IMG/VR virus record: IMGVR_UViG_3300027777_000031
Location: 1 to 64,000 of that record
Strand: one strand, 5' to 3'
DNA from: a virus
DNA length: 64,000 nt
Part shown: piece after piece, positions 51,497 through 61,893 of the stretch
How the letters are laid out: every line of letters begins with the position of its first letter
How positions within the stretch are numbered: the stretch's first letter is position 1
Program-made: the position numbers and the translations under genes
The notes under the pieces: model-generated
Database searches by the model: none
Seen by the model: only the letters and a program-made list of their open reading frames with translations
What the model was told of the DNA's origin: nothing

Positions 51497-51890
51497 GGGA
51501 GCGACACGGAATTGATTATTAGTAATAGTTATTCGGGGCACGTAGTGAGATGTTCTCTATCACTTAAATCTATGGGTACAACAATTTAGACGGAAACGTT
51601 TTAAACAAAATGGCTCTAGTAGGTCTTGTACGTCAAGACGAGCTTGTGAACGTAGCGTAAGCAAACTCACATTGGGGTCGGTGGACATATAACCCAGCAA
51701 CAGGAGTCCCTACAAAGGTGTGGTACCTATCCGAAAAGGTACAAGTGGAGGATTAGTTCTCAGTAAACCAAACCACTCTAAAAATAAGGGAATTGTGAAA
51801 TTTTGGATTGTTAGCTTAAACAATATCCTAAACGTGTAGTCCTTAATAGGTAGTACAAATAAGACCGGAGTTCGAGTCTCCGCGCTTCCA
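51497..51890 (+). ncRNA. ssrA: tmRNA
   Basis: GGGAGCG pairs with CGCTTCC-A (G3:U70 Ala identity); T-arm CGGAG-TTCGAGT-CTCCG; tag ORF 51592-51660 after TAGAC; no encoded CCA; smpB 1 kb away. Confidence 0.93.
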
Positions 51891-51925
51891 CTTCCACCGG
51901 AGAGTCCCGACACCTCCATCAAAAG

Positions 51926-52946: not shown

Positions 52947-53384
52947 TCATTTCAAGTCTCTTTTCATATCTCTATCAATGTCCCGAGATTTTATACTATC
53001 TCGTTTATCGTGGAGTTTTTTCCCTTTGGCAAGAGCAATCTCCATCTTAACTAATCCGGTGTCATTTATGAAGACACGATAAGGAATGATGGTTGTCCCG
53101 TTGATTAACTCACTCTCCAACTTATTCAGTTCTTTTCTCTTGGCTAATAGTTTTCTATCCTTAACGGTCTCGTGGAATGACCCAAACCCATAATCTGAGA
53201 TGTTCATTCCTTTAACAAATAACTCATTATTATTGAAATAACAATAACTTTCCGAGATGGAGACCTTTCCCTGACGGATGGATTTCACTTCTGAACCAAC
53301 TAGTTTGATTCCCACAATTAAAGTTTCCAAGAAGGAATATTCAAACTTGGCTTTCTTATTGACTATGTTAATTGATTTTTTCAT
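52947..53384 (-). CDS. smpB: SsrA-binding protein SmpB
   Basis: NKKAKFEY, GIKLVGSEVKSIR, RKLL, ALAKGKKLHDKR; start placed at MKKSINIVN. Confidence 0.95.
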   Translation of the reverse strand: MKKSINIVNKKAKFEYSFLETLIVGIKLVGSEVKSIRQGKVSISESYCYFNNNELFVKGMNISDYGFGSFHETVKDRKLLAKRKELNKLESELINGTTIIPYRVFINDTGLVKMEIALAKGKKLHDKRDSIKSRDIDRDMKRDLK

Positions 53385-53388
53385 ATGA

Positions 53389-53419
53389 CAAAGATAATAT
53401 AAAAATTGATATAAACAAA
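53389..53419 (-). promoter_or_regulatory. Bacteroidetes-type promoter of smpB
   Basis: TTTG-N19-TATCTTTG ending 4 nt before the ATG. Confidence 0.7.
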
Positions 53420-53478
53420 AAACCCCAACCAATTAAATGGTGGGGTTTTTATAATTTTATTTTTTTTAATAAAATATA

Positions 53479-53886: not shown

Positions 53887-53920
53887 AATATTCTTTTAAT
53901 ATAAATATATGATATAAACA

Positions 53921-53953
53921 AAAAAGGTGATACAAATTAATGTACCACCTTTT
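53921..53953 (-). terminator. Intrinsic terminator closing the large ncRNA
   Basis: Minus strand AAAAGGTGGTACA-TTAATT-TGTATCACCTTTTT. Confidence 0.75.
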
Positions 53954-53954
53954 G

Positions 53955-54800
53955 GCTTAATACGATGAGAATACTCGTCTTATTGAGAATCTTCGGAAGC
54001 ATTATTTTTTCGCTTCTTTTCCACCATCTTTTGAATGGTAATCCTCATTGCCGATTGGTTAGACCAATCACTCCTTGAGATATCATCTACTCTCTCATTA
54101 TTCAACTCTCTTCAATCTTGCGAACTGACTCCGGATTCGACTCCGTAGAGGTTTTTGGCGAGAATACATTCAGACTTGCGGTCATCCTGTGCAACGAACG
54201 GCTCGTTACTATGTAGGCAACTTGTCGACGATACCTGACAGACACTTTTGCTCTTTTCTGTTTAGTTTTTCACCATATTGAAAATAGTTAACGTGTTGTG
54301 GATGTGTCCAAGTAGAGGTCTGTCTTAGGCTTCATCATCTTTTGGACGAAGAAATACCAACCTACTCGGTAGAGTGTCCCCACTCTCATATTTTAAGAAT
54401 TCTTCAAATCAAAATCTTGGTAGATGTTTGATAAGGATAATGACAGCACCACCTGTTACTTATCTTGTCTTTCGACTTTAAGATTTCTCTCATATTGGAA
54501 CCCGCAATAATTAAGTTGGATAACCTAACTTCTTACTTGATTCCTATCACTTATTCCTGTTGGAGTTCCCCCCTCAACCGAAAGACCCACATCTCCCGGT
54601 CACCCAACCACTTTCTCTAAAGCGTCGCCCTCAATACTGAAGGTCAGATGGTATGTGACTTGTATACTCGAGTCCCATTTCTGAGACCGCAAACCTGTTA
54701 ACACAACAGATTCACTTTAGCCCGGTTTCCCGGTTTATTTAAGGATGATATACCACCCATTATCGTTTTTATAATACCTAAGTACTATATGGATAATCTA
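53955..54800 (-). ncRNA. Large structured ncRNA, GOLLD-like
   Basis: About 850 nt with no ORF of 60 aa or more, raised GC, GNRA-capped hairpins on the minus strand (CCGG-GAAA-CCGG, GTC-GAAA-GAC, GAC-CGCAAG-TC, TCAGTT-CGCAAG-ATTGA), own promoter and terminator, next to tRNA-like genes. Family assignment is from recall and needs a covariance-model search; ends approximate. Confidence 0.7.
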
Positions 54801-54841
54801 AAATGTTTAAGAACGTTTTGAGGTTTCCCTCATTTGTTTTA

Positions 54842-54872
54842 CAAAGGTAAGTGATTTTTTTGAGAAGTCAAA
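54842..54872 (-). promoter_or_regulatory. Bacteroidetes-type promoter of the large ncRNA
   Basis: TTTG-N19-TACCTTTG. Confidence 0.75.
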
Positions 54873-54892
54873 CACTTTTGTATTTTTTTTTA

Positions 54893-55090
54893 TTATTTAA
54901 TATTTTGTAGTTCCCAATCAAAATTTTTTCCCCTCATAACATCATCTGTCATTAACTTACTTTTATGTAAATCCCAAATAACCTCAATCTTTAAAAATGG
55001 GTTAAAACCACTAATTAATAAAAGATATTGTTCATTATTGTTTGTTTTATTAGTTATAATATAATAACCACTTTCAAGTTTTGTGTCCAT
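54893..55090 (-). CDS. Small hypothetical protein
   Basis: 65-aa ORF preceded by an A-rich (A7-8)T repeat leader. Confidence 0.5.
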   Translation of the reverse strand: MDTKLESGYYIITNKTNNNEQYLLLISGFNPFLKIEVIWDLHKSKLMTDDVMRGKNFDWELQNIK

Positions 55091-55127
55091 TTTTTTTATT
55101 TTTTTTATTTTTTTTATTTTTTTTTAA

Positions 55128-55246
55128 TCTGTGATAAGACCTTAAGATTTACAAATTCGTAGGTCACCCATTCTTTACTACCTAAAACTCGCACTCCCGG
55201 CAGGGATAGTCTGCTGTAATAGGTCTATCTGCTATCTTATCACAGA
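55128..55246 (-). ncRNA. Unknown structured RNA closed by a 12-bp stem
   Basis: TCTGTGATAAGA/TCTTATCACAGA perfect inverted repeat with nested pairings (TTACAG/TTGTAA, TCCC/GGGA, TAGGT/ACCTA). Confidence 0.55.
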
Positions 55247-55253
55247 ATAAATT

Positions 55254-55342
55254 ATGTGTGTGTACGCTCTACCATTATAGCTAAACCTTGGTCATCACGA
55301 TTACGGTTGTTGGAATCGAACCAACGACTTTACACTACACAT
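55254..55342 (-). ncRNA. Circularly permuted tRNA-like RNA (T-arm, closed acceptor, D-arm)
   Basis: ATGTGTaGTGTA, AAGTC, GTTGG-TTCGATT-CCAAC, AACC-loop-GGTT, TAGCTATAATGGTAGAGC, G, TACACACACAT. Confidence 0.8.
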
Positions 55343-55346
55343 TTTG

Positions 55347-55438
55347 TGGTATCGGCAGGGTTCGAACCTACGGCACAGAGTCTTTCGTTACTCCTGCTCT
55401 ACCAAAGGAAGACGAATCCCCCACTGAGCTACAATACC
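55347..55438 (-). ncRNA. Atypical tRNA-like RNA with a hairpin inserted in the D-loop and a non-canonical anticodon loop
   Basis: Acceptor GGTATTG/CGATACC-A; D-arm GCTC/GAGC containing GGGGGA-TTCG-TCTTCC; anticodon stem GGAGT/ACTCT with 8-nt loop AACGAAAG; T-arm GTAGG-TTCGAAC-CCTGC. Confidence 0.8.
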
Positions 55439-55449
55439 ATTATAAGTTA

Positions 55450-55524
55450 GTGGACGTATGCTCTACCATCTGAGCTACAGCTTTTAATCACCGGAGGGAT
55501 TTGAATCCTCGACACAACGTCCAC
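55450..55524 (-). ncRNA. Circularly permuted tRNA-like RNA (T-arm, closed acceptor, D-arm)
   Basis: GTGGACGT, TGTGTC, GAGGA-TTCAAAT-CCCTC, CGGT-loop-GCTG, TAGCTCAGATGGTAGAGC, AT, ACGTCCAC. Confidence 0.75.
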
Positions 55525-55562
55525 CTATATTTTCAATAATTTTAAGAACTTTATTTCTTCTA

Positions 55563-55594
55563 CAAAGATAATACTTTTATTTTAATATATCAAA
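55563..55594 (-). promoter_or_regulatory. Bacteroidetes-type promoter of the tRNA-like array
   Basis: TTTG-N20-TATCTTTG followed by boxA-like GTTCTTAAA at 55541-55549. Confidence 0.7.
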
Positions 55595-55753
55595 TTATTT
55601 TAAAAATAATTTTATTAATTGAGTTAATCCTCCCATACAACATATTCCCGCACAAAAATAACTAAATCCGGGATTTCTACCATTCTCTTTTTGTGTTTTT
55701 GCGGAGAATAGGTTTAATCCCATCAATCCGAATTGTAATAATACTATTTCCAT
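55595..55753 (-). CDS. Small membrane protein (52 aa, not in the ORF track)
   Basis: MEIVLLQFGLMGLNLFSAK...FSYFCAGICCMGGLTQLIKLFLK with two hydrophobic segments. Confidence 0.5.
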   Translation of the reverse strand: MEIVLLQFGLMGLNLFSAKTQKENGRNPGFSYFCAGICCMGGLTQLIKLFLK

Positions 55754-55775
55754 AATTTTTATAATTTAATGTTTG

Positions 55776-55848
55776 TAGTCAGGACAGGACTCGAACCTGT
55801 AACTTTATTCCACTACACGGTTTGCGTCTACCATTCCGCCACCTGACT
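55776..55848 (-). ncRNA. tRNA-Leu-like body with collapsed anticodon arm
   Basis: Perfect acceptor AGTCAGG/CCTGACT-A, D-arm TGGCGGAATGGTAGACGC, T-arm ACAGG-TTCGAGT-CCTGT; only 3 bp in the anticodon stem and no long variable arm. Confidence 0.75.
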
Positions 55849-56000
55849 ATGTTTCGTTAATGTTAAAAACTGATTCAATCCTCCTAAAAAACACTAACTT
55901 GCTACTTACTGATATTGGCTCGCCCATCCATTTCTCATATTGATTTACCTGAAACTTCTTCGGGTTGTTGATTGACCACTCCCGCTTACTCAAGTAGTTT

Positions 56001-56255
56001 TTACATACTCATCATCCAACCCATTCGGTTTTGTTCTTGATACTGAGAATAAGTACATTTTCTCATTGACTTATAATCCGGTCTCAACTTAGTGTGAGTT
56101 GGGTATTTCTTCTCGTGTTCTTTCTGTTCTCTCATAACACGAGCATACGCCTCTCTTTTACTTGGTGCCCACACATCATTAAATCCACCACCAATCCAAT
56201 TAAACAAATATAGGTATTCACCATTAACACTTCTATACAATTTCTCTTTAGCCAT
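56001..56255 (-). CDS. Hypothetical basic protein
   Basis: 84-aa ORF downstream of a TAnnTTTG promoter. Confidence 0.65.
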   Translation of the reverse strand: MAKEKLYRSVNGEYLYLFNWIGGGFNDVWAPSKREAYARVMREQKEHEKKYPTHTKLRPDYKSMRKCTYSQYQEQNRMGWMMSM

Positions 56256-58809: not shown

Positions 58810-61800
58810 ATGTCTGATATTTCTAATCAATTAATTAAGGATTCATATAATTATGTCCTACAATCTGACCTATCAACCGGTAATATTTACCGTATTGGTG
58901 GGGGTATTCCCGTTAATCCAATATTTTTATCCGGATTAACAATTATCTCAAGTTTTAAATTTTCAAATGGTTCTGAAAGAGCAGGATATGTTTTAACATC
59001 AGATGGTTCAGGTAATGCAACTTGGAGTCCTGTTTCAAATCAAAAAATAATATTAAAAAAAATTGATTTAGGCACTAGATTAATTAATGGATTGGGTAAT
59101 GTTGTAGTTAATTTAGTTAATGTTTGGGATAGGTTAACTAATTCTATTATTGGTAAACAACTTTACTATTCCGGAGTTAAAGTTGATTATTATTTTACTT
59201 ACAATAATCCAAATAATGGTATTAGAACTAAAGAATTATGGACAACTCAAACATTTAATGTAAATCTCAATACATCATTTGCGTTTAGTGGTATTTGCAA
59301 TTATATTAGTCAAAATTATGAAACAACATTAGTGAATTTTTATTGTGAAATTTATTTAAATTTAAATCAAAATTATTTATCTCCAACACAAGTTAGATTA
59401 ACCAATCCACTATTTAATTCATTAAATCCGTACAAATATAGTAGAGGTAAAAATTATACAGGTGAGGCTGAGTTTGTACGAAGTAATAATAACTTACCAA
59501 AATCATTGAATTCTATTGAAAATAATTTTATAAATGGCTGGCAATATTATTACGACGTTGGAGCTTCAAAAGATATTGTGAAAAAAGTATATGATATAAT
59601 TTCAACACCTGAATTTTATGGTCCATTCTCGGCAGAGTCACAGTCAATATTAATTTTTGACACTCCATATTCAAATGAAAGTAGAGAGGTTATTAAAAAT
59701 AGTGTCTATGTTGAAACTTTAACCGGATTTTATTCAAAATTTAAAATACCGGTAAATCAACACGGATTTTTCGAATCTTGTGTAAAATTATTTAATAATT
59801 TTTATGGTAATTTATTGTATGATATTGTTAGTGGCTCTACACCTACAATTAATAGTCACGCATCAATAGATGGGTATAATTCATCATCATTCTATCAAAT
59901 GATTGACACTTATCGTATTTACCCCAAAGGAACACCAGGAATAATTTATTACACGGTTAATTTTAAATTAAATGATTTACTTTTTTCAATGGGAATAGAT
60001 AAACATCTAAAATATATTGGAAAATTTAGACAAAAGTCATATGTTCAAGTATTGCCGTATTATCAAAACGTTTATATATTAAAAATAAGTGTTAATGGGG
60101 ATAATAATCCACTATTATTTATTAATAATTTAATTAATAATTATCTTCAAATTAATGACTCGTCACTAAAAAGTAAAATCATCGATAACACCCCTAATCC
60201 TTATTGGACTAACGGGAATTATGGTTATATGGCTAATGAAAATTATTTTTATAATTATAACCCTTATGGTCCGTATTTGGTAATTCAATCAACGGATGAA
60301 AAGATGTATCAACTATCTCAAAACCCAATTTATACTGCGAGTAGTGTGGATACCATTTATATTGGGGGTGGTTTTACTAATTATAATCACAACGGAGCAA
60401 ATTATATTATTAACTTAAATACGGATGGCTCAGTTAATTCCACATATAATTCAGGATTTGATAGTTATGTTCAGGTAATTGTAATACAATCAGACAATAA
60501 ACTATTAGTTGGCGGTAATTTTTATAGTTATAACGGAACCGGAGCAAGTAGAATTATTAGATTAAACTCAGATGGTTCAGTTGATTCATCATTTGTTTAT
60601 GGTTCGGGATTCAATGGTAAAACAACTGTTCAAACAATTGCAATACAATCAGATAATAAAATATTGGTTGGCGGTGGTTTTAATAATTATAACGGAACCG
60701 GAGCAAATTATATCATTAGATTAAATTCAGACGGTTCGGTTGATTCATCATTTGTTTATGGTGATGGATTTGATGACCTTGTTAATATAATTACAATACA
60801 ATCAGATAATAAAATATTGGTTGGCGGTGGTTTTAATAATTATAACGGAACCGGAGCAAATAGAATTATTAGATTAAACTCAGACGGTTCGGTTGATTCA
60901 TCATTTGTTTATGATGATGGATTTGATAGTGATGTTCAAACAATTGTAATACAATCAGATGGAAAAATATTGGTTGGAGGTTATTTTAGGAATTATAACG
61001 GAACCGGAGCAAATAGAATTATTAGATTAAACTCAGACGGTTCGGTTGATTCATCATTTGTTTATGGTTCGGGATTTGATAACCTTGTTAATATAATTAC
61101 AACACAATCAGACAATAAAATATTGGTTGGTGGTTATTTTAATAGTTATAACGGAACCGGAGCAAATTATATCATTAGATTAAACTCAGATGGTTCAATT
61201 GATTCATCATTTGTTTATGGTTCGGGATTTGATAACCTTGTTAATATAATTACAACACAATCAGACAATAAAATATTGGTTGGTGGTTATTTTAATAGTT
61301 ATAACGGAACCGGAGCAAATTATATCATTAGATTAAACTCAGACGGTTCGGTTGATTCATCATTTGTTTATGGTGATGGATTTAATACGTTTGTTCAAAC
61401 AATTGCAACTAAAGTAATAACAAATTCAATTAATGTTGACGCAATTTATAAAGGAACATCATTTAAACCATTTATTTATCCATTAAATTTAAATCAATTA
61501 ACTTTAGAAGTTCCGGTAACAGATGATAATAATCAGTTTTTTATGGATGGAACCAAAGAATTAAGATTTATAATAAAATATATTAAATTACAACAATATG
61601 ATGTTTCAACGGCACAAATAAAAGTAACAACTATTAGAAATGAAACTTCTGATAATAAATTTTTTACATTAACCCTATCTACGAATGACTCATTTGAAAG
61701 CACTGTTTTAGGTGAAATAAGTCATACTAATCGAAAACAATTTAGACCTGGAAATGTTGAAATATATTTATCATTTTTTGATACCAATACTAATGAAACA

Positions 61801-61893
61801 AGTTTAATACCGAATTATAAAATAATCATTGCAAAATATGGTGATAATGAGGTATTTAAATTAATAAAGGGTCCAAACGTTATCAATATTTAA
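58810..61893 (+). CDS. Fibre-like protein with delta-60 (DUF5122-type) beta-propeller repeats
   Basis: GYVLTSDGSGNATW fibre motif; about 7 repeats of IQSDNKILVGG-x-F-x-x-YNG...IIRLNSDGSVDSSF. Confidence 0.8.
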   Translation: MSDISNQLIKDSYNYVLQSDLSTGNIYRIGGGIPVNPIFLSGLTIISSFKFSNGSERAGYVLTSDGSGNATWSPVSNQKIILKKIDLGTRLINGLGNVVVNLVNVWDRLTNSIIGKQLYYSGVKVDYYFTYNNPNNGIRTKELWTTQTFNVNLNTSFAFSGICNYISQNYETTLVNFYCEIYLNLNQNYLSPTQVRLTNPLFNSLNPYKYSRGKNYTGEAEFVRSNNNLPKSLNSIENNFINGWQYYYDVGASKDIVKKVYDIISTPEFYGPFSAESQSILIFDTPYSNESREVIKNSVYVETLTGFYSKFKIPVNQHGFFESCVKLFNNFYGNLLYDIVSGSTPTINSHASIDGYNSSSFYQMIDTYRIYPKGTPGIIYYTVNFKLNDLLFSMGIDKHLKYIGKFRQKSYVQVLPYYQNVYILKISVNGDNNPLLFINNLINNYLQINDSSLKSKIIDNTPNPYWTNGNYGYMANENYFYNYNPYGPYLVIQSTDEKMYQLSQNPIYTASSVDTIYIGGGFTNYNHNGANYIINLNTDGSVNSTYNSGFDSYVQVIVIQSDNKLLVGGNFYSYNGTGASRIIRLNSDGSVDSSFVYGSGFNGKTTVQTIAIQSDNKILVGGGFNNYNGTGANYIIRLNSDGSVDSSFVYGDGFDDLVNIITIQSDNKILVGGGFNNYNGTGANRIIRLNSDGSVDSSFVYDDGFDSDVQTIVIQSDGKILVGGYFRNYNGTGANRIIRLNSDGSVDSSFVYGSGFDNLVNIITTQSDNKILVGGYFNSYNGTGANYIIRLNSDGSIDSSFVYGSGFDNLVNIITTQSDNKILVGGYFNSYNGTGANYIIRLNSDGSVDSSFVYGDGFNTFVQTIATKVITNSINVDAIYKGTSFKPFIYPLNLNQLTLEVPVTDDNNQFFMDGTKELRFIIKYIKLQQYDVSTAQIKVTTIRNETSDNKFFTLTLSTNDSFESTVLGEISHTNRKQFRPGNVEIYLSFFDTNTNETSLIPNYKIIIAKYGDNEVFKLIKGPNVINI
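60350..61410 (+). repeat. Tandem 153-nt (51-aa) coding repeats
   Basis: AACGGAACCGGAGCAA recurs at about 60532, 60691, 60844, 60997, 61150 and 61303. Confidence 0.9.

What the first reader, a model, noticed from the sequence alone, without database searches (positions are those of the whole stretch)
55128..55848. Array of anticodon-less tRNA mimics, including two circularly permuted ones
Seen: within 720 nt on the minus strand, four RNAs keep the D-arm (TAGC or TGGC...TGGTAGA.GC) and T-arm (TTCRA) that form the tRNA elbow, and each lacks a usable anticodon in a different way: two are opened at the anticodon loop, one has an 8-nt loop without U33, one has a collapsed arm. Three of them plus a stem-closed RNA are spaced only 4-11 nt apart behind one promoter. 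Stems stay paired although the sequences differ, which argues against random decay. Inference: a repertoire of elbow-presenting decoys or regulators for tRNA-binding proteins (anticodon nucleases, tRNA-modifying toxins, stringent-response or processing enzymes) that cannot be disabled by anticodon cleavage. This is the best candidate for an undescribed system in the window.
Basis: partly seen in the sequence, partly recalled or inferred. Interest (0 to 1): 0.9.

Follow-up and report, generated by a model that had tools for sequence, protein, structure and literature searches.

The report
Phage operon of anticodon-less tRNA mimics
A lake jumbo phage carries a conserved small operon of tRNA-shaped RNAs that cannot read codons, two of them built like bacterial YrlA Y RNAs but with no Ro60 partner, so they probably imitate the tRNA body for a binding partner that is still unknown.

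Summary
On the minus strand, 55525-55128 holds four tightly packed structured RNAs behind one host-type promoter.

- A and C are circularly permuted tRNA bodies: T-arm, closed acceptor-like hairpin and D-arm, with the ends in an 'anticodon' stem.
- B is a full tRNA body with a hairpin grafted into the D-loop and an 8-nt loop in place of the anticodon loop.
- D is a 118-nt stem-closed RNA.
- T1 (55848-55775), a fifth tRNA-like gene with a weak anticodon stem, lies upstream.

About 30 related contigs of ~310-kb freshwater phages keep A and B. Pairing is 98% in both, with double-sided changes in 11 of 21 pairs (A plus C) and 9 of 28 pairs (B).

The closest known kind is YrlA, but three YrlA defining features fail. 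Scores are 25-35 bits against a gathering score of 69. The GNCGAA motif is absent. No TROVE gene was found in this record or in five 96-100% complete relatives.

The decoy function is unproven. Context fits a tRNA conflict: own tRNA set, Rnl1-type ligase, tmRNA with SmpB, and GOLLD next door.

Other agents of this scan reached the same reading on relatives' DNA. Verdict: real, and a new variant of a known kind.

The parts
55563..55594 (-). Host-type (TTTG-N-TAnnTTTG) promoter-like site in front of A-B-C-D
   Evidence: Pattern match: 11 matches in the window against 5.03 expected, and 3 of 100 shuffles reach 11. Near-identical -7 boxes stand before the tmRNA, smpB and GOLLD. This is a consensus match only.
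55541..55549 (-). GTTCTTAAA motif in the leader (boxA-like; the same motif follows the GOLLD promoter at 54814-54806)
   Evidence: 3 matches in the window against 2.41 expected. Two of them sit just downstream of the two RNA promoters. Only the placement is suggestive.
55441..55530 (-). A: permuted tRNA-body mimic (closing stem 55525-55517 with 55457-55449; T-arm; short closed acceptor-position hairpin; D-arm)
   Evidence: R1 105.4 bits. Rfam YrlA 34.6 bits, E 3.1e-5, below the gathering score of 69. The minimum-free-energy fold gives the four-way junction.
55347..55438 (-). B: full tRNA body with a 6-bp hairpin inserted in the D-loop and an 8-nt loop (two bases, then a pair closing GAAA) instead of an anticodon loop
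   Evidence: Rfam tRNA 39 bits. R3 105.3 bits. 97.8% of cells paired and 9 of 28 pairs with double-sided change.
55247..55346 (-). C: second permuted tRNA-body mimic, with a longer acceptor-position hairpin
   Evidence: R1 37.6 bits and R2 72.6 bits. Rfam YrlA 25.3 bits, E 0.016. Orthologues in 5 SmpB loci and 8 orf84 loci.
55128..55245 (-). D: 118-nt stem-closed RNA of no known family
   Evidence: 12-bp closing stem, z-score -3.12. 94-98% identical in 8 loci, and in 6 more as a long form with an insert of about 128 nt. No Rfam match. No covariation.
55775..55848 (-). T1: tRNA-like gene with intact acceptor, D and T arms but a weak anticodon stem (3 of 5 pairs); loop reads G-U-GUA-G-U
   Evidence: Rfam tRNA 43.3 bits with the anticodon arm skipped. 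ARAGORN 'Tyr gta'. Relatives keep the same acceptor and T-arm around interiors of 74-115 nt.

Best explanation
A, B, C and D form one transcription unit of stable RNAs that cannot decode.

**Shown**
- A and C are free-standing tRNA-body modules of the YrlA design. The D-loop/T-loop elbow and both coaxial stacks are kept. The acceptor end is sealed by a hairpin of free sequence. The chain ends sit in a 9-10-bp helix where the anticodon stem would be.
- B is a complete tRNA body. Its anticodon loop is replaced by a closed, GNRA-type cap, and an extra hairpin sits at its elbow.

**Inferred**
- The precursor starts near 55556.
- Host RNase P and RNase Z cut it at B's acceptor stem. This would free A on one side and C plus D on the other.
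- The products fold and are modified like tRNA.
- They act by shape. They occupy (titrate, or recruit) a factor that recognises the tRNA elbow and body rather than the anticodon or the CCA end.
- This happens in an infected cell where tRNAs are contested.
- They do not act through Ro60.
For: **Structure is conserved**
- A plus C, 13 distinct rows: 98.2% of cells paired and 11 of 21 pairs with double-sided change. Slid controls pair at 28-61%.
- A alone, MAFFT alignment: 98.6% paired, 4 of 21 pairs with double-sided change.
- B: 97.8% paired, 9 of 28 pairs with double-sided change.
- D- and T-arm sequences are invariant within the A family, while the sealed acceptor hairpin varies freely in stem and loop.
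- The tertiary elbow pair 19:56 reads G:C in most A copies, G.U in L158 and U:A in L017 (my reading).

**A cap, not an anticodon**
- The base 5' of GAAA and the base 3' of it change together: C..G in 10 rows and U..A in 3 (pair 52:57).
- In L028, B's place is taken by a 76-nt tRNA-like RNA with a 7-bp stem capped by GGAA.

**The models are specific**
- There are no strong R1 or R2 hits in normal tRNA arrays.
- Weak hits in distant phages turned out to be junctions of tandem tRNAs.

**No Ro60**
- TROVE: 0 of 6 records, five of them 96-100% complete.
- The GNCGAA motif is absent from the cluster.

**Context**
- 20 normal tRNAs lie at 71-80 kb.
- An Rnl1-type RNA ligase is present in 5 of 5 records, with an AAA_33 kinase beside it.
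- tmRNA and SmpB are present.

**Expression hint**
- RNA-library contig X9 record 16 covers 55131-55334 without a mismatch.
Against: - No binding, processing or modification datum exists. The partner is unnamed.
- The expression hint is one contig in 1 of 4 RNA runs, at depth 6.5. DNA carry-over in that library cannot be excluded.
- A and C lack the anticodon loop and the CCA end. Known anticodon nucleases and acceptor-end toxins read those features, so the classical decoy targets are unlikely partners.
- Much of the covariation comes from a few lineages of one phage clade, so it counts sequences rather than independent events.
- The A plus C alignment was fitted to the model.
- Strong hits were found only in this clade, so there is no independent second lineage to test against.
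Confidence: 0.4

Rival explanations
1. A and C are true Y RNAs. They bind the host's Ro60/Rsr, or a phage Ro-like protein too divergent for Pfam, and tether it to a nuclease such as PNPase, as YrlA does.
For: - The topology matches YrlA, and the Rfam YrlA model aligns full-length at E 3.1e-5 and 0.016. In relatives it scores 38.9-41.5 bits.
- The promoter type suggests a Bacteroidota host. One Bacteroidota control genome has TROVE but no YrlA hit above cut-off. Y RNAs of that phylum may therefore differ from the Rfam model.
Against: - The GNCGAAN0-1G motif is absent from the window cluster. It is present in only 2 of 14 homologues, and there it lies 34 nt upstream of the element.
- TROVE is 0 of 6, DUF2828 0 of 5 (that control rang nowhere) and RtcB 0 of 5.
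- The closing stem is a plain 9-10-bp helix with no bulge and no long paired extension.
- Scores are far below the gathering score.
Confidence: 0.15
2. The tRNA-like units are only processing and stability devices. They would be RNase P/Z punctuation and a folding chassis for the co-transcribed RNAs (D, perhaps read-through into GOLLD), with no function of their own in trans.
For: - The units are 5-10 nt apart, and B has a full 7-bp acceptor stem that covaries.
- Relatives keep one acceptor and T-arm 'chassis' around very different interiors of 74-115 nt.
- D comes in short and long forms within the same closing stem.
- RNA contig X8 record 8 runs from 55085 to 54254, across the GOLLD promoter.
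Against: - A and C have sealed acceptor ends of 3-4 bp, which is not what RNase P or RNase Z needs.
- Their D and T loops and the elbow pair are conserved. A mere spacer would not require that.
- L017 has A and B but no D by BLAST.
Confidence: 0.15
3. The mimics work with the neighbouring GOLLD RNA cage, as cargo, adaptors or assembly partners. B's GNRA cap or elbow hairpin would serve as a docking element.
For: - A is present in all 23 loci with a near-full GOLLD match of 76% identity or more, and B in 22 of those 23.
- GOLLD forms a hollow 14-mer, lies near tRNA islands, and sometimes carries tRNAs in its interior linker (bioRxiv 10.1101/2024.12.08.627333, passages).
- A Mycolicibacterium GOLLD embeds a tRNA-Phe (PMC12990946, passage).
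- GOLLD is covered in 4 of 4 RNA runs.
Against: - Of the 30 GOLLD-motif loci, about 20 come from contigs outside this clade, and none of those has a strong R2 hit.
- Four more distant loci with GOLLD lack A and B.
- L017 has a GOLLD core 100% identical to the window's but a very different A (73% identity) and no C or D. The parts therefore do not co-vary.
- All the linkage comes from one syntenic clade.
Confidence: 0.1
4. B, and perhaps T1, still decode. B would be the phage's tRNA-Phe with an enlarged loop, possibly a four-base decoder. T1 would be a weak tRNA-Tyr.
For: - Every B loop contains GAA. In L013, L014 and L016 it reads like a Phe loop with one extra base.
- Neither this record (20 normal tRNAs) nor a complete relative (18) has a normal tRNA-Phe.
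- B keeps a covarying acceptor stem and an A at the discriminator position.
- T1 has U33 and GUA, and its loop is identical in L017.
Against: - 10 of 13 B rows lack U next to the putative anticodon, and that base covaries with the base beyond GAAA as a closing pair.
- L028 replaces B with a GGAA-capped stem.
- The D-loop hairpin is conserved.
- A real tRNA-Tyr lies at 79509-79590.
- T1's stem has two A.A mismatches.
Confidence: 0.06
5. The elements are decaying tRNA genes, with no selection on the mimic shape.
For: - T1 has only one close orthologue, and its anticodon stem is degenerate.
- In distant phages the conserved upstream gene orf84 sits inside ordinary tRNA arrays: 14 of 80 loci have 8-25 tRNA calls. 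The site may therefore descend from a tRNA array.
Against: - Compensatory changes occur in every helix class of A, B and C.
- The permuted order is conserved in 33 of 80 orf84 loci.
- The inserted D-loop hairpin itself covaries.
Confidence: 0.04

Closest known systems
YrlA (Y RNA-like A; Rfam RF02553) of bacteria and mycobacteriophages (Chen et al. 2014, PMC4201824; structure in bioRxiv 10.1101/312249)
   Same: The order T-arm, closed acceptor-position hairpin, D-arm, with the RNA ends in the stem that stands for the anticodon stem. [quoted passage not shown] The Rfam model aligns over its whole length.
   Different: Scores are 25-42 bits against a gathering score of 69. There is no GNCGAAN0-1G motif. 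No rsr/TROVE gene lies within 4 kb or anywhere in six records. The closing stem is short and plain, with no Ro-binding module. The elements sit in an operon with a full tRNA-body mimic and beside GOLLD.
Canonical tRNA (Rfam RF00005)
   Same: B and T1 have an acceptor stem, D-arm, T-arm and variable region, and score above the tRNA gathering score (39 and 43.3 bits against 29).
   Different: B has a 16-nt hairpin in the D-loop and an 8-nt loop with a covarying closing pair around GAAA. T1 has only 3 of 5 anticodon-stem pairs. Neither is counted among the phage's 20 ordinary tRNAs.
Circularly permuted tRNA genes of red algae and some archaea (recalled; only search listings seen)
   Same: The 3' half is encoded before the 5' half.
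   Different: Those genes yield normal tRNAs after circularisation and need a 7-bp acceptor stem and a splicing endonuclease. Here the acceptor position is a 3-4-bp hairpin of free sequence, so no tRNA can result.
tRNAs next to or inside GOLLD RNA (Kretsch et al., bioRxiv 10.1101/2024.12.08.627333; review PMC12990946)
   Same: tRNA-shaped RNAs lie within 1 kb of a GOLLD gene on the same strand.
   Different: The published cases are ordinary tRNAs. These are non-decoding mimics, and they are not inside the GOLLD linker.
Phage 'stem plus ACAGCAA handle' RNAs beside a Ro60-shaped (DUF2828-type) protein. This comes from this scan's own unchecked AI notes, not from print.
   Same: Phage small RNAs that display permuted tRNA parts.
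   Different: There is no ACAGCAA in the cluster: 3 matches in the window, all elsewhere, against 4.64 expected. No DUF2828 match in 5 records (the control rang nowhere, so this is weak).

Membership tests
YrlA (RF02553) | tRNA-like domain in the order T-arm, closed acceptor-position stem-loop, D-arm, with a variable-region linker | tested here: met
   Full-length alignment to the Rfam model. Minimum-free-energy fold. Covariation.
YrlA (RF02553) | Score at or above Rfam's gathering score (69 bits) | tested here: not met
   34.6 and 25.3 bits in the window; 38.9-41.5 bits in four relatives.
YrlA (RF02553) | GNCGAAN0-1G motif near the 5' end (likely Rsr contact; Chen et al. 2014, passages) | tested here: not met
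   0 matches in 55100-55900. 2 of 14 A/C homologues have one, 34 nt upstream of the element. Background is 0.16 per kb per strand.
YrlA (RF02553) | Encoded within 4 kb of a Ro60/Rsr (TROVE) gene on the same strand | tested here: not met
   PF05731 gave no match in this 89,863-nt record. It gave none in five relatives that are 96-100% complete. The control rang in 2 of 14 genomes.
YrlA (RF02553) | Bound by Rsr in vivo | not testable with these tools
   Needs immunoprecipitation. The host is unknown.
tRNA (RF00005), for B | Cloverleaf body above the gathering score | tested here: met
   39 bits against 29. The acceptor, D and T stems pair and covary.
tRNA (RF00005), for B | Seven-base anticodon loop with U33 | tested here: not met
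   The loop is 8 nt. The base before GAA is C in 10 of 13 rows and covaries with the base after GAAA.
tRNA (RF00005), for T1 | Five-pair anticodon stem with a seven-base loop | tested here: inconclusive
   The loop has U33 and GUA, but only 3 of 5 stem positions pair (4 of 5 in L017). The Rfam alignment skips the arm.
Permuted tRNA genes (algal/archaeal type) | The halves can form a 7-bp acceptor stem that is opened to give a normal tRNA | tested here: not met
   The acceptor position is a 3-4-bp hairpin with loops of 3-17 nt.
Phage ACAGCAA-handle RNAs (scan notes only) | Terminal stem next to ACAGCAA; DUF2828-type protein gene nearby | tested here: not met
   The motif is absent from the cluster. 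PF11443 matched in 0 of 5 records, but its control rang nowhere.

The most novel reading that the evidence does not exclude
These are Ro60-independent, free-standing tRNA-elbow mimics that a jumbo phage makes early, together with GOLLD. They would jam or redirect a host factor that senses tRNA shape, such as an immune sensor or nuclease, a processing enzyme or a ribosomal site. Because they have neither an anticodon loop nor a free CCA end, they could be neither cut nor charged. On this reading, B would be a second kind of mimic that keeps the acceptor end but hides the anticodon.
Probability: 0.25. Interest if true: 0.85.

Novelty: new variant of a known kind. Interest (0 to 1): 0.62.

Why it matters
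The role of the tRNA-like half of YrlA Y RNAs has been open since 2014. The structure paper ends by saying that the conserved D and T stems may bind an unknown factor (bioRxiv 10.1101/312249, abstract).

Here the same module occurs stripped of everything else. It has no Ro60 site and no Ro60 gene. It is kept by selection in a clade of ~310-kb phages, next to a different, acceptor-bearing mimic and the GOLLD cage RNA.

That gives a minimal natural construct for asking what reads a tRNA elbow on its own. It also gives a concrete RNA set to test for a link between GOLLD and tRNA-shaped RNAs.

If they are decoys, this would add an RNA-based layer to the phage-host fight over tRNAs, beside spare tRNAs and tRNA repair.

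Tried and rejected
- **Public phage records.** blastn of 55120-55560 against 50,697 phage records found no match.
- **Ro60 route.** TROVE, DUF2828 and RtcB were not found. The DUF2828 control rang nowhere, so that negative is weak.
- **CCA-adding-type nucleotidyltransferase.** Found in only 2 of 5 records, so it is not a clade feature.
- **orf84 (56255-56001) as a dedicated partner.**
  - It is conserved: 169 protein clusters and 80 viral loci.
  - Only 33 of the 80 loci have the mimics.
  - 14 have ordinary tRNA arrays instead.
  - 7 loci that I picked from the rest gave no Rfam match at all.
  - Rejected as a specific partner.
- **Weak R2 hits in distant orf84 loci.** These scored 20-33 bits. 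I checked 11 hits in L158, L188, L196, L198 and L212. The nine in L188, L196, L198 and L212 lie at junctions of tandem tRNAs, the artefact that Chen et al. warn of.
- **T1 as a descendant of tRNA-Tyr.** It does not align with five real phage tRNA-Tyr genes outside the T-loop. Not supported.
- **B as a descendant of tRNA-Phe.** No tRNA-Phe was available in the near clade. The ordinary tRNAs that R3 scores best are Met, Arg, Gly and Thr. blastn against E. coli genomes gave nothing. The Phe likeness rests on the loop letters and on my recall of tRNA-Phe.
- **Wider spread.** R2 found nothing strong in the roughly 20 GOLLD-motif loci from contigs outside the clade, nor in the more distant SmpB loci. 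I could not run a model over whole public collections.
- **RNA runs.** A, B and T1 had no cover in the four contig sets laid. Contigs cannot show absence.
- **Print searches.** Searches found no paper describing these RNAs.
- **Supplements closed.** Supplementary tables of Chen et al. list their phage YrlAs. I could not check them.
Full report
**Where the window lies.** The window is the first 64 kb of an 89,863-nt IMG/VR virus record, judged about 30% complete. Its relatives are freshwater phages of 282-322 kb, five of them 96-100% complete.

Around the finding, the minus strand reads in this order:
- orf84 (56255-56001)
- T1 (55848-55775)
- a 52-codon membrane-like ORF
- a promoter-like site (55594-55563)
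- A, B, C and D (55525-55128)
- an A-rich tract
- a non-conserved 65-codon ORF
- GOLLD RNA (Rfam 298.8 bits for 54369-53962)
- a 135-codon ORF
- smpB (53432-52947; Pfam SmpB, 160.5 bits)

A standard tmRNA lies on the other strand at 51497-51893. Twenty ordinary tRNA genes lie at 71.1-80.2 kb of the record, outside the window.

**Checking the observation.** ARAGORN calls only two genes in the window, and both are odd. One is 55346-55438 as 'Thr ggt' (93 nt). The other is 55775-55848 as 'Tyr gta'.

At a relaxed threshold Rfam gives:
- tRNA for T1 (43.3 bits) and B (39 bits)
- YrlA for the two 'permuted' elements: 34.6 bits with E 3.1e-5, and 25.3 bits with E 0.016. Both align over the whole model, and both are far below the gathering score of 69.

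Free folding of A returns the proposed four-way junction: a 9-bp closing stem, a T hairpin, a 4-bp hairpin in the acceptor position and a D hairpin.

B reads as follows:
- a 7-bp acceptor stem and a D stem
- a D-loop interrupted by a 6-bp hairpin with a UUCG loop, just before the conserved GG
- a 5-bp stem with an 8-nt loop
- a variable region and a T-arm
- an A at the discriminator position (and the alignment)

The gaps are 10, 5 and 9 nt.

**Conservation and covariation.** Loci fetched through SmpB (71) and later through orf84 (80) gave many homologues.

By BLAST among the SmpB loci:
- A is in 23. A 24th hit, in L065, is a 23-nt tRNA-like match.
- B is in 22, C in 5 and D in 14.
- The GOLLD core is in 27.

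Model R1 was built from 10 distinct A sequences. It found A in the window plus 23 loci and C in the window plus 5 loci. The only other matches were three of 17.6 bits. It hit nothing in the phage's normal tRNA arrays.

| Alignment | Rows | Cells paired | Pairs changed on both sides | Slid controls |
|---|---|---|---|---|
| A, MAFFT | 10 distinct | 98.6% | 4 of 21 | 33-57% |
| A plus C plus the L017 variant, fitted to the model | 13 distinct | 98.2% | 11 of 21 (1 of 500 shuffles reaches this) | 28-61% |
| B, MAFFT | 13 distinct | 97.8% | 9 of 28 | 41-51% |

- In the A alignment, the double-sided changes are three in the closing stem and one in the acceptor-position hairpin.
- In B, they fall in the acceptor stem, the T stem, the anticodon-position stem, the inserted D-loop hairpin, and the pair that closes GAAA (C:G in 10 rows, U:A in 3).

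Two further details come from my reading of the alignments.
- The tertiary elbow pair 19:56 of A is G:C in most copies, G.U in L158 and U:A in L017.
- In L028, B's place is taken by a 76-nt tRNA-like RNA whose anticodon arm is a 7-bp stem capped by GGAA.

Both details point to selection for an intact elbow and a closed, non-decoding tip.

Caveats:
- All sequences come from one phage clade, so cells are not independent events.
- D is almost invariant and gives no covariation: 0 of 35 pairs, with changes only in predicted loops.

**T1.** T1 is the weakest member. Its acceptor, D and T arms are intact. Its loop has U33 and GUA and is identical in the one close orthologue (L017). Its stem pairs at 3 of 5 positions, against 4 of 5 in L017.

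Other relatives keep the same acceptor stem and T-arm around interiors of 88-115 nt. One of these has two T-arm-like hairpins. T1 does not resemble five real phage tRNA-Tyr genes. It could be a poor tRNA, a chassis for other modules, or a decaying gene.

**Is it a Y RNA?** Chen et al. (PMC4201824, passages read) define YrlA by three features:
- a tRNA-like domain in the order T-arm, acceptor-position stem-loop (AS), D-arm
- a GNCGAAN0-1G motif near the 5' end
- a position within 4 kb of rsr on the same strand

They also warn that tandem tRNAs give false hits.

Here the first feature is met. The motif is absent from 55900-55100. It occurs in only 2 of 14 A/C homologues, and there it lies 34 nt upstream. 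TROVE is absent from this record and from five near-complete relatives. RtcB is absent too.

Notes of this scan pointed to a 'stem plus ACAGCAA' handle and a DUF2828-type Ro-like protein in other phages. Neither is here, though the DUF2828 control rang nowhere.

The tandem-tRNA artefact does occur with my model in distant phages. It does not occur at A or C, which have closing stems and no tRNA halves beside them.

I therefore file A and C as working like the tRNA-like module of YrlA, but not as members of the Rfam family.

**Context that bears on function.** All five records tested encode an Rnl1-type RNA ligase (PF09511, 67.7-72.8 bits). In this record it lies at 65556-66071, with an AAA_33 P-loop kinase two genes away. 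In T4 this pair repairs tRNAs cut by an anticodon nuclease. That is established knowledge, summarised for jumbo phages in PMC7824862 (passages).

With its own tRNA set and tmRNA plus SmpB, the phage clearly invests in keeping translation running.

GOLLD is a hollow 14-mer of unknown function. It is found near tRNA islands and sometimes has tRNAs in its interior linker (bioRxiv 10.1101/2024.12.08.627333, passages).

Within this clade the mimics always accompany GOLLD. About 20 GOLLD loci from contigs outside the clade lack them. L017 has an identical GOLLD core but a very different A and no C or D.

**Expression.**
- Six lake metatranscriptome runs hold parts of 53900-55900.
- In the four that I laid, contigs cover GOLLD in all four.
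- One contig (X8) runs from 55085 across the GOLLD promoter to 54254.
- One 208-nt contig (X9, depth 6.5, no mismatch) covers 55131-55334, that is D and most of C.
- This is a weak hint of transcription. It says nothing about ends or levels.

**Most likely mechanism.** Shown: four adjacent RNAs with conserved, covarying tRNA-type folds that cannot decode, and no Ro60 module or gene.

Inferred:
- One precursor is made from the promoter at 55594-55563.
- It is cut by RNase P and RNase Z at B, the only unit with a free-ended 7-bp acceptor stem.
- The products are stable, tRNA-like in fold, and act by shape.

In A the acceptor hairpin is free to vary, while the D and T arms, the linker and the elbow pair are fixed. 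The surface under selection is therefore the elbow and body. Partners that read the elbow include RNase P, RNase Z, T-loop and D-loop modifying enzymes, and the ribosomal L1 stalk and A-site finger. That list is from established knowledge and was not tested here.

My confidence:
- about 0.4 for titration or recruitment of such a factor
- about 0.9 that these are real, selected, non-decoding RNAs

The rivals are true Ro60 partnership, mere processing devices, GOLLD partnership, residual decoding by B or T1, and decay. They are weighed in their own sections.

**Novelty.** My searches found no paper on Ro-less permuted tRNA mimics in phages, on a tRNA body with a D-loop hairpin and capped anticodon stem, or on such RNAs beside GOLLD.

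The design of A and C has been in print since 2014, so this is a new variant of a known kind. Other agents of this scan reached the same conclusions on relatives' DNA. I re-tested those claims here rather than relying on them.

Noticed in passing
window 53962-54369 (-), transcript probably about 53955-54835: GOLLD RNA (Rfam 298.8 bits). Lake metatranscriptome contigs cover it in 4 of 4 runs laid, and one contig (X8) continues upstream to 55085 across the GOLLD promoter.
   Followed up: partly
window 51497-51893 (+) and 52947-53432 (-): A phage-encoded one-piece tmRNA (74.9 bits) and SmpB (Pfam 160.5 bits) lie within 2 kb of GOLLD.
   Followed up: no
window 54806-54814 (-) and 55541-55549 (-): The same GTTCTTAAA motif follows both RNA promoters by 15-30 nt. 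Relatives show GTTCTTAGAAA at the GOLLD leader. It may be a boxA-like antitermination signal.
   Followed up: partly
window 56001-56255 (-): orf84 is a basic 84-residue protein with no Pfam match. It is highly conserved (169 clusters, 69-98% identity among the 120 listed). In distant phages it sits inside ordinary arrays of 8-25 tRNA genes.
   Followed up: yes
L127:1126-2151 (-) and L127:2516-2920 (-), which is 65.2-67.0 kb of the record, just outside the window: An Rnl1-type RNA ligase (PF09511, present in 5 of 5 related records) with an AAA_33 P-loop kinase close by. This is a likely tRNA-repair pair.
   Followed up: partly
L008:3320-3423, L017:1702-1816, L023:2223-2315, L024:3754-3841, L014:4314-4407: These tRNA-like genes share T1's acceptor stem and T-arm but have quite different interiors of 88-115 nt. 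The L014 one holds two T-arm-like hairpins.
   Followed up: partly
L008:4465-4615 and L024:4640-4800: A further stem-closed RNA of about 140 nt sits between A and B in some relatives. It is absent from the window.
   Followed up: no
L005:4792-5020: A long form of D: the same closing stem and 3' half, with about 128 extra nt in place of the inner hairpin. Seen in 6 loci.
   Followed up: partly
record 71140-80183 (outside the window) and the relative G001: The normal tRNA sets lack Phe and Pro here (20 tRNAs). In a complete 308-kb relative (18 tRNAs) they lack Phe, Pro, Trp and His.
   Followed up: partly
window 58810-61893 (+): A 1027-residue protein with seven DUF5122 beta-propeller repeats (Pfam E 6.8e-98).
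   Followed up: no
window 54893-55090 (-): The 65-codon ORF between D and GOLLD has no counterpart in any of the 71 related loci. It may not be a gene, and it is preceded by an A-rich repeat at 55086-55130.
   Followed up: partly
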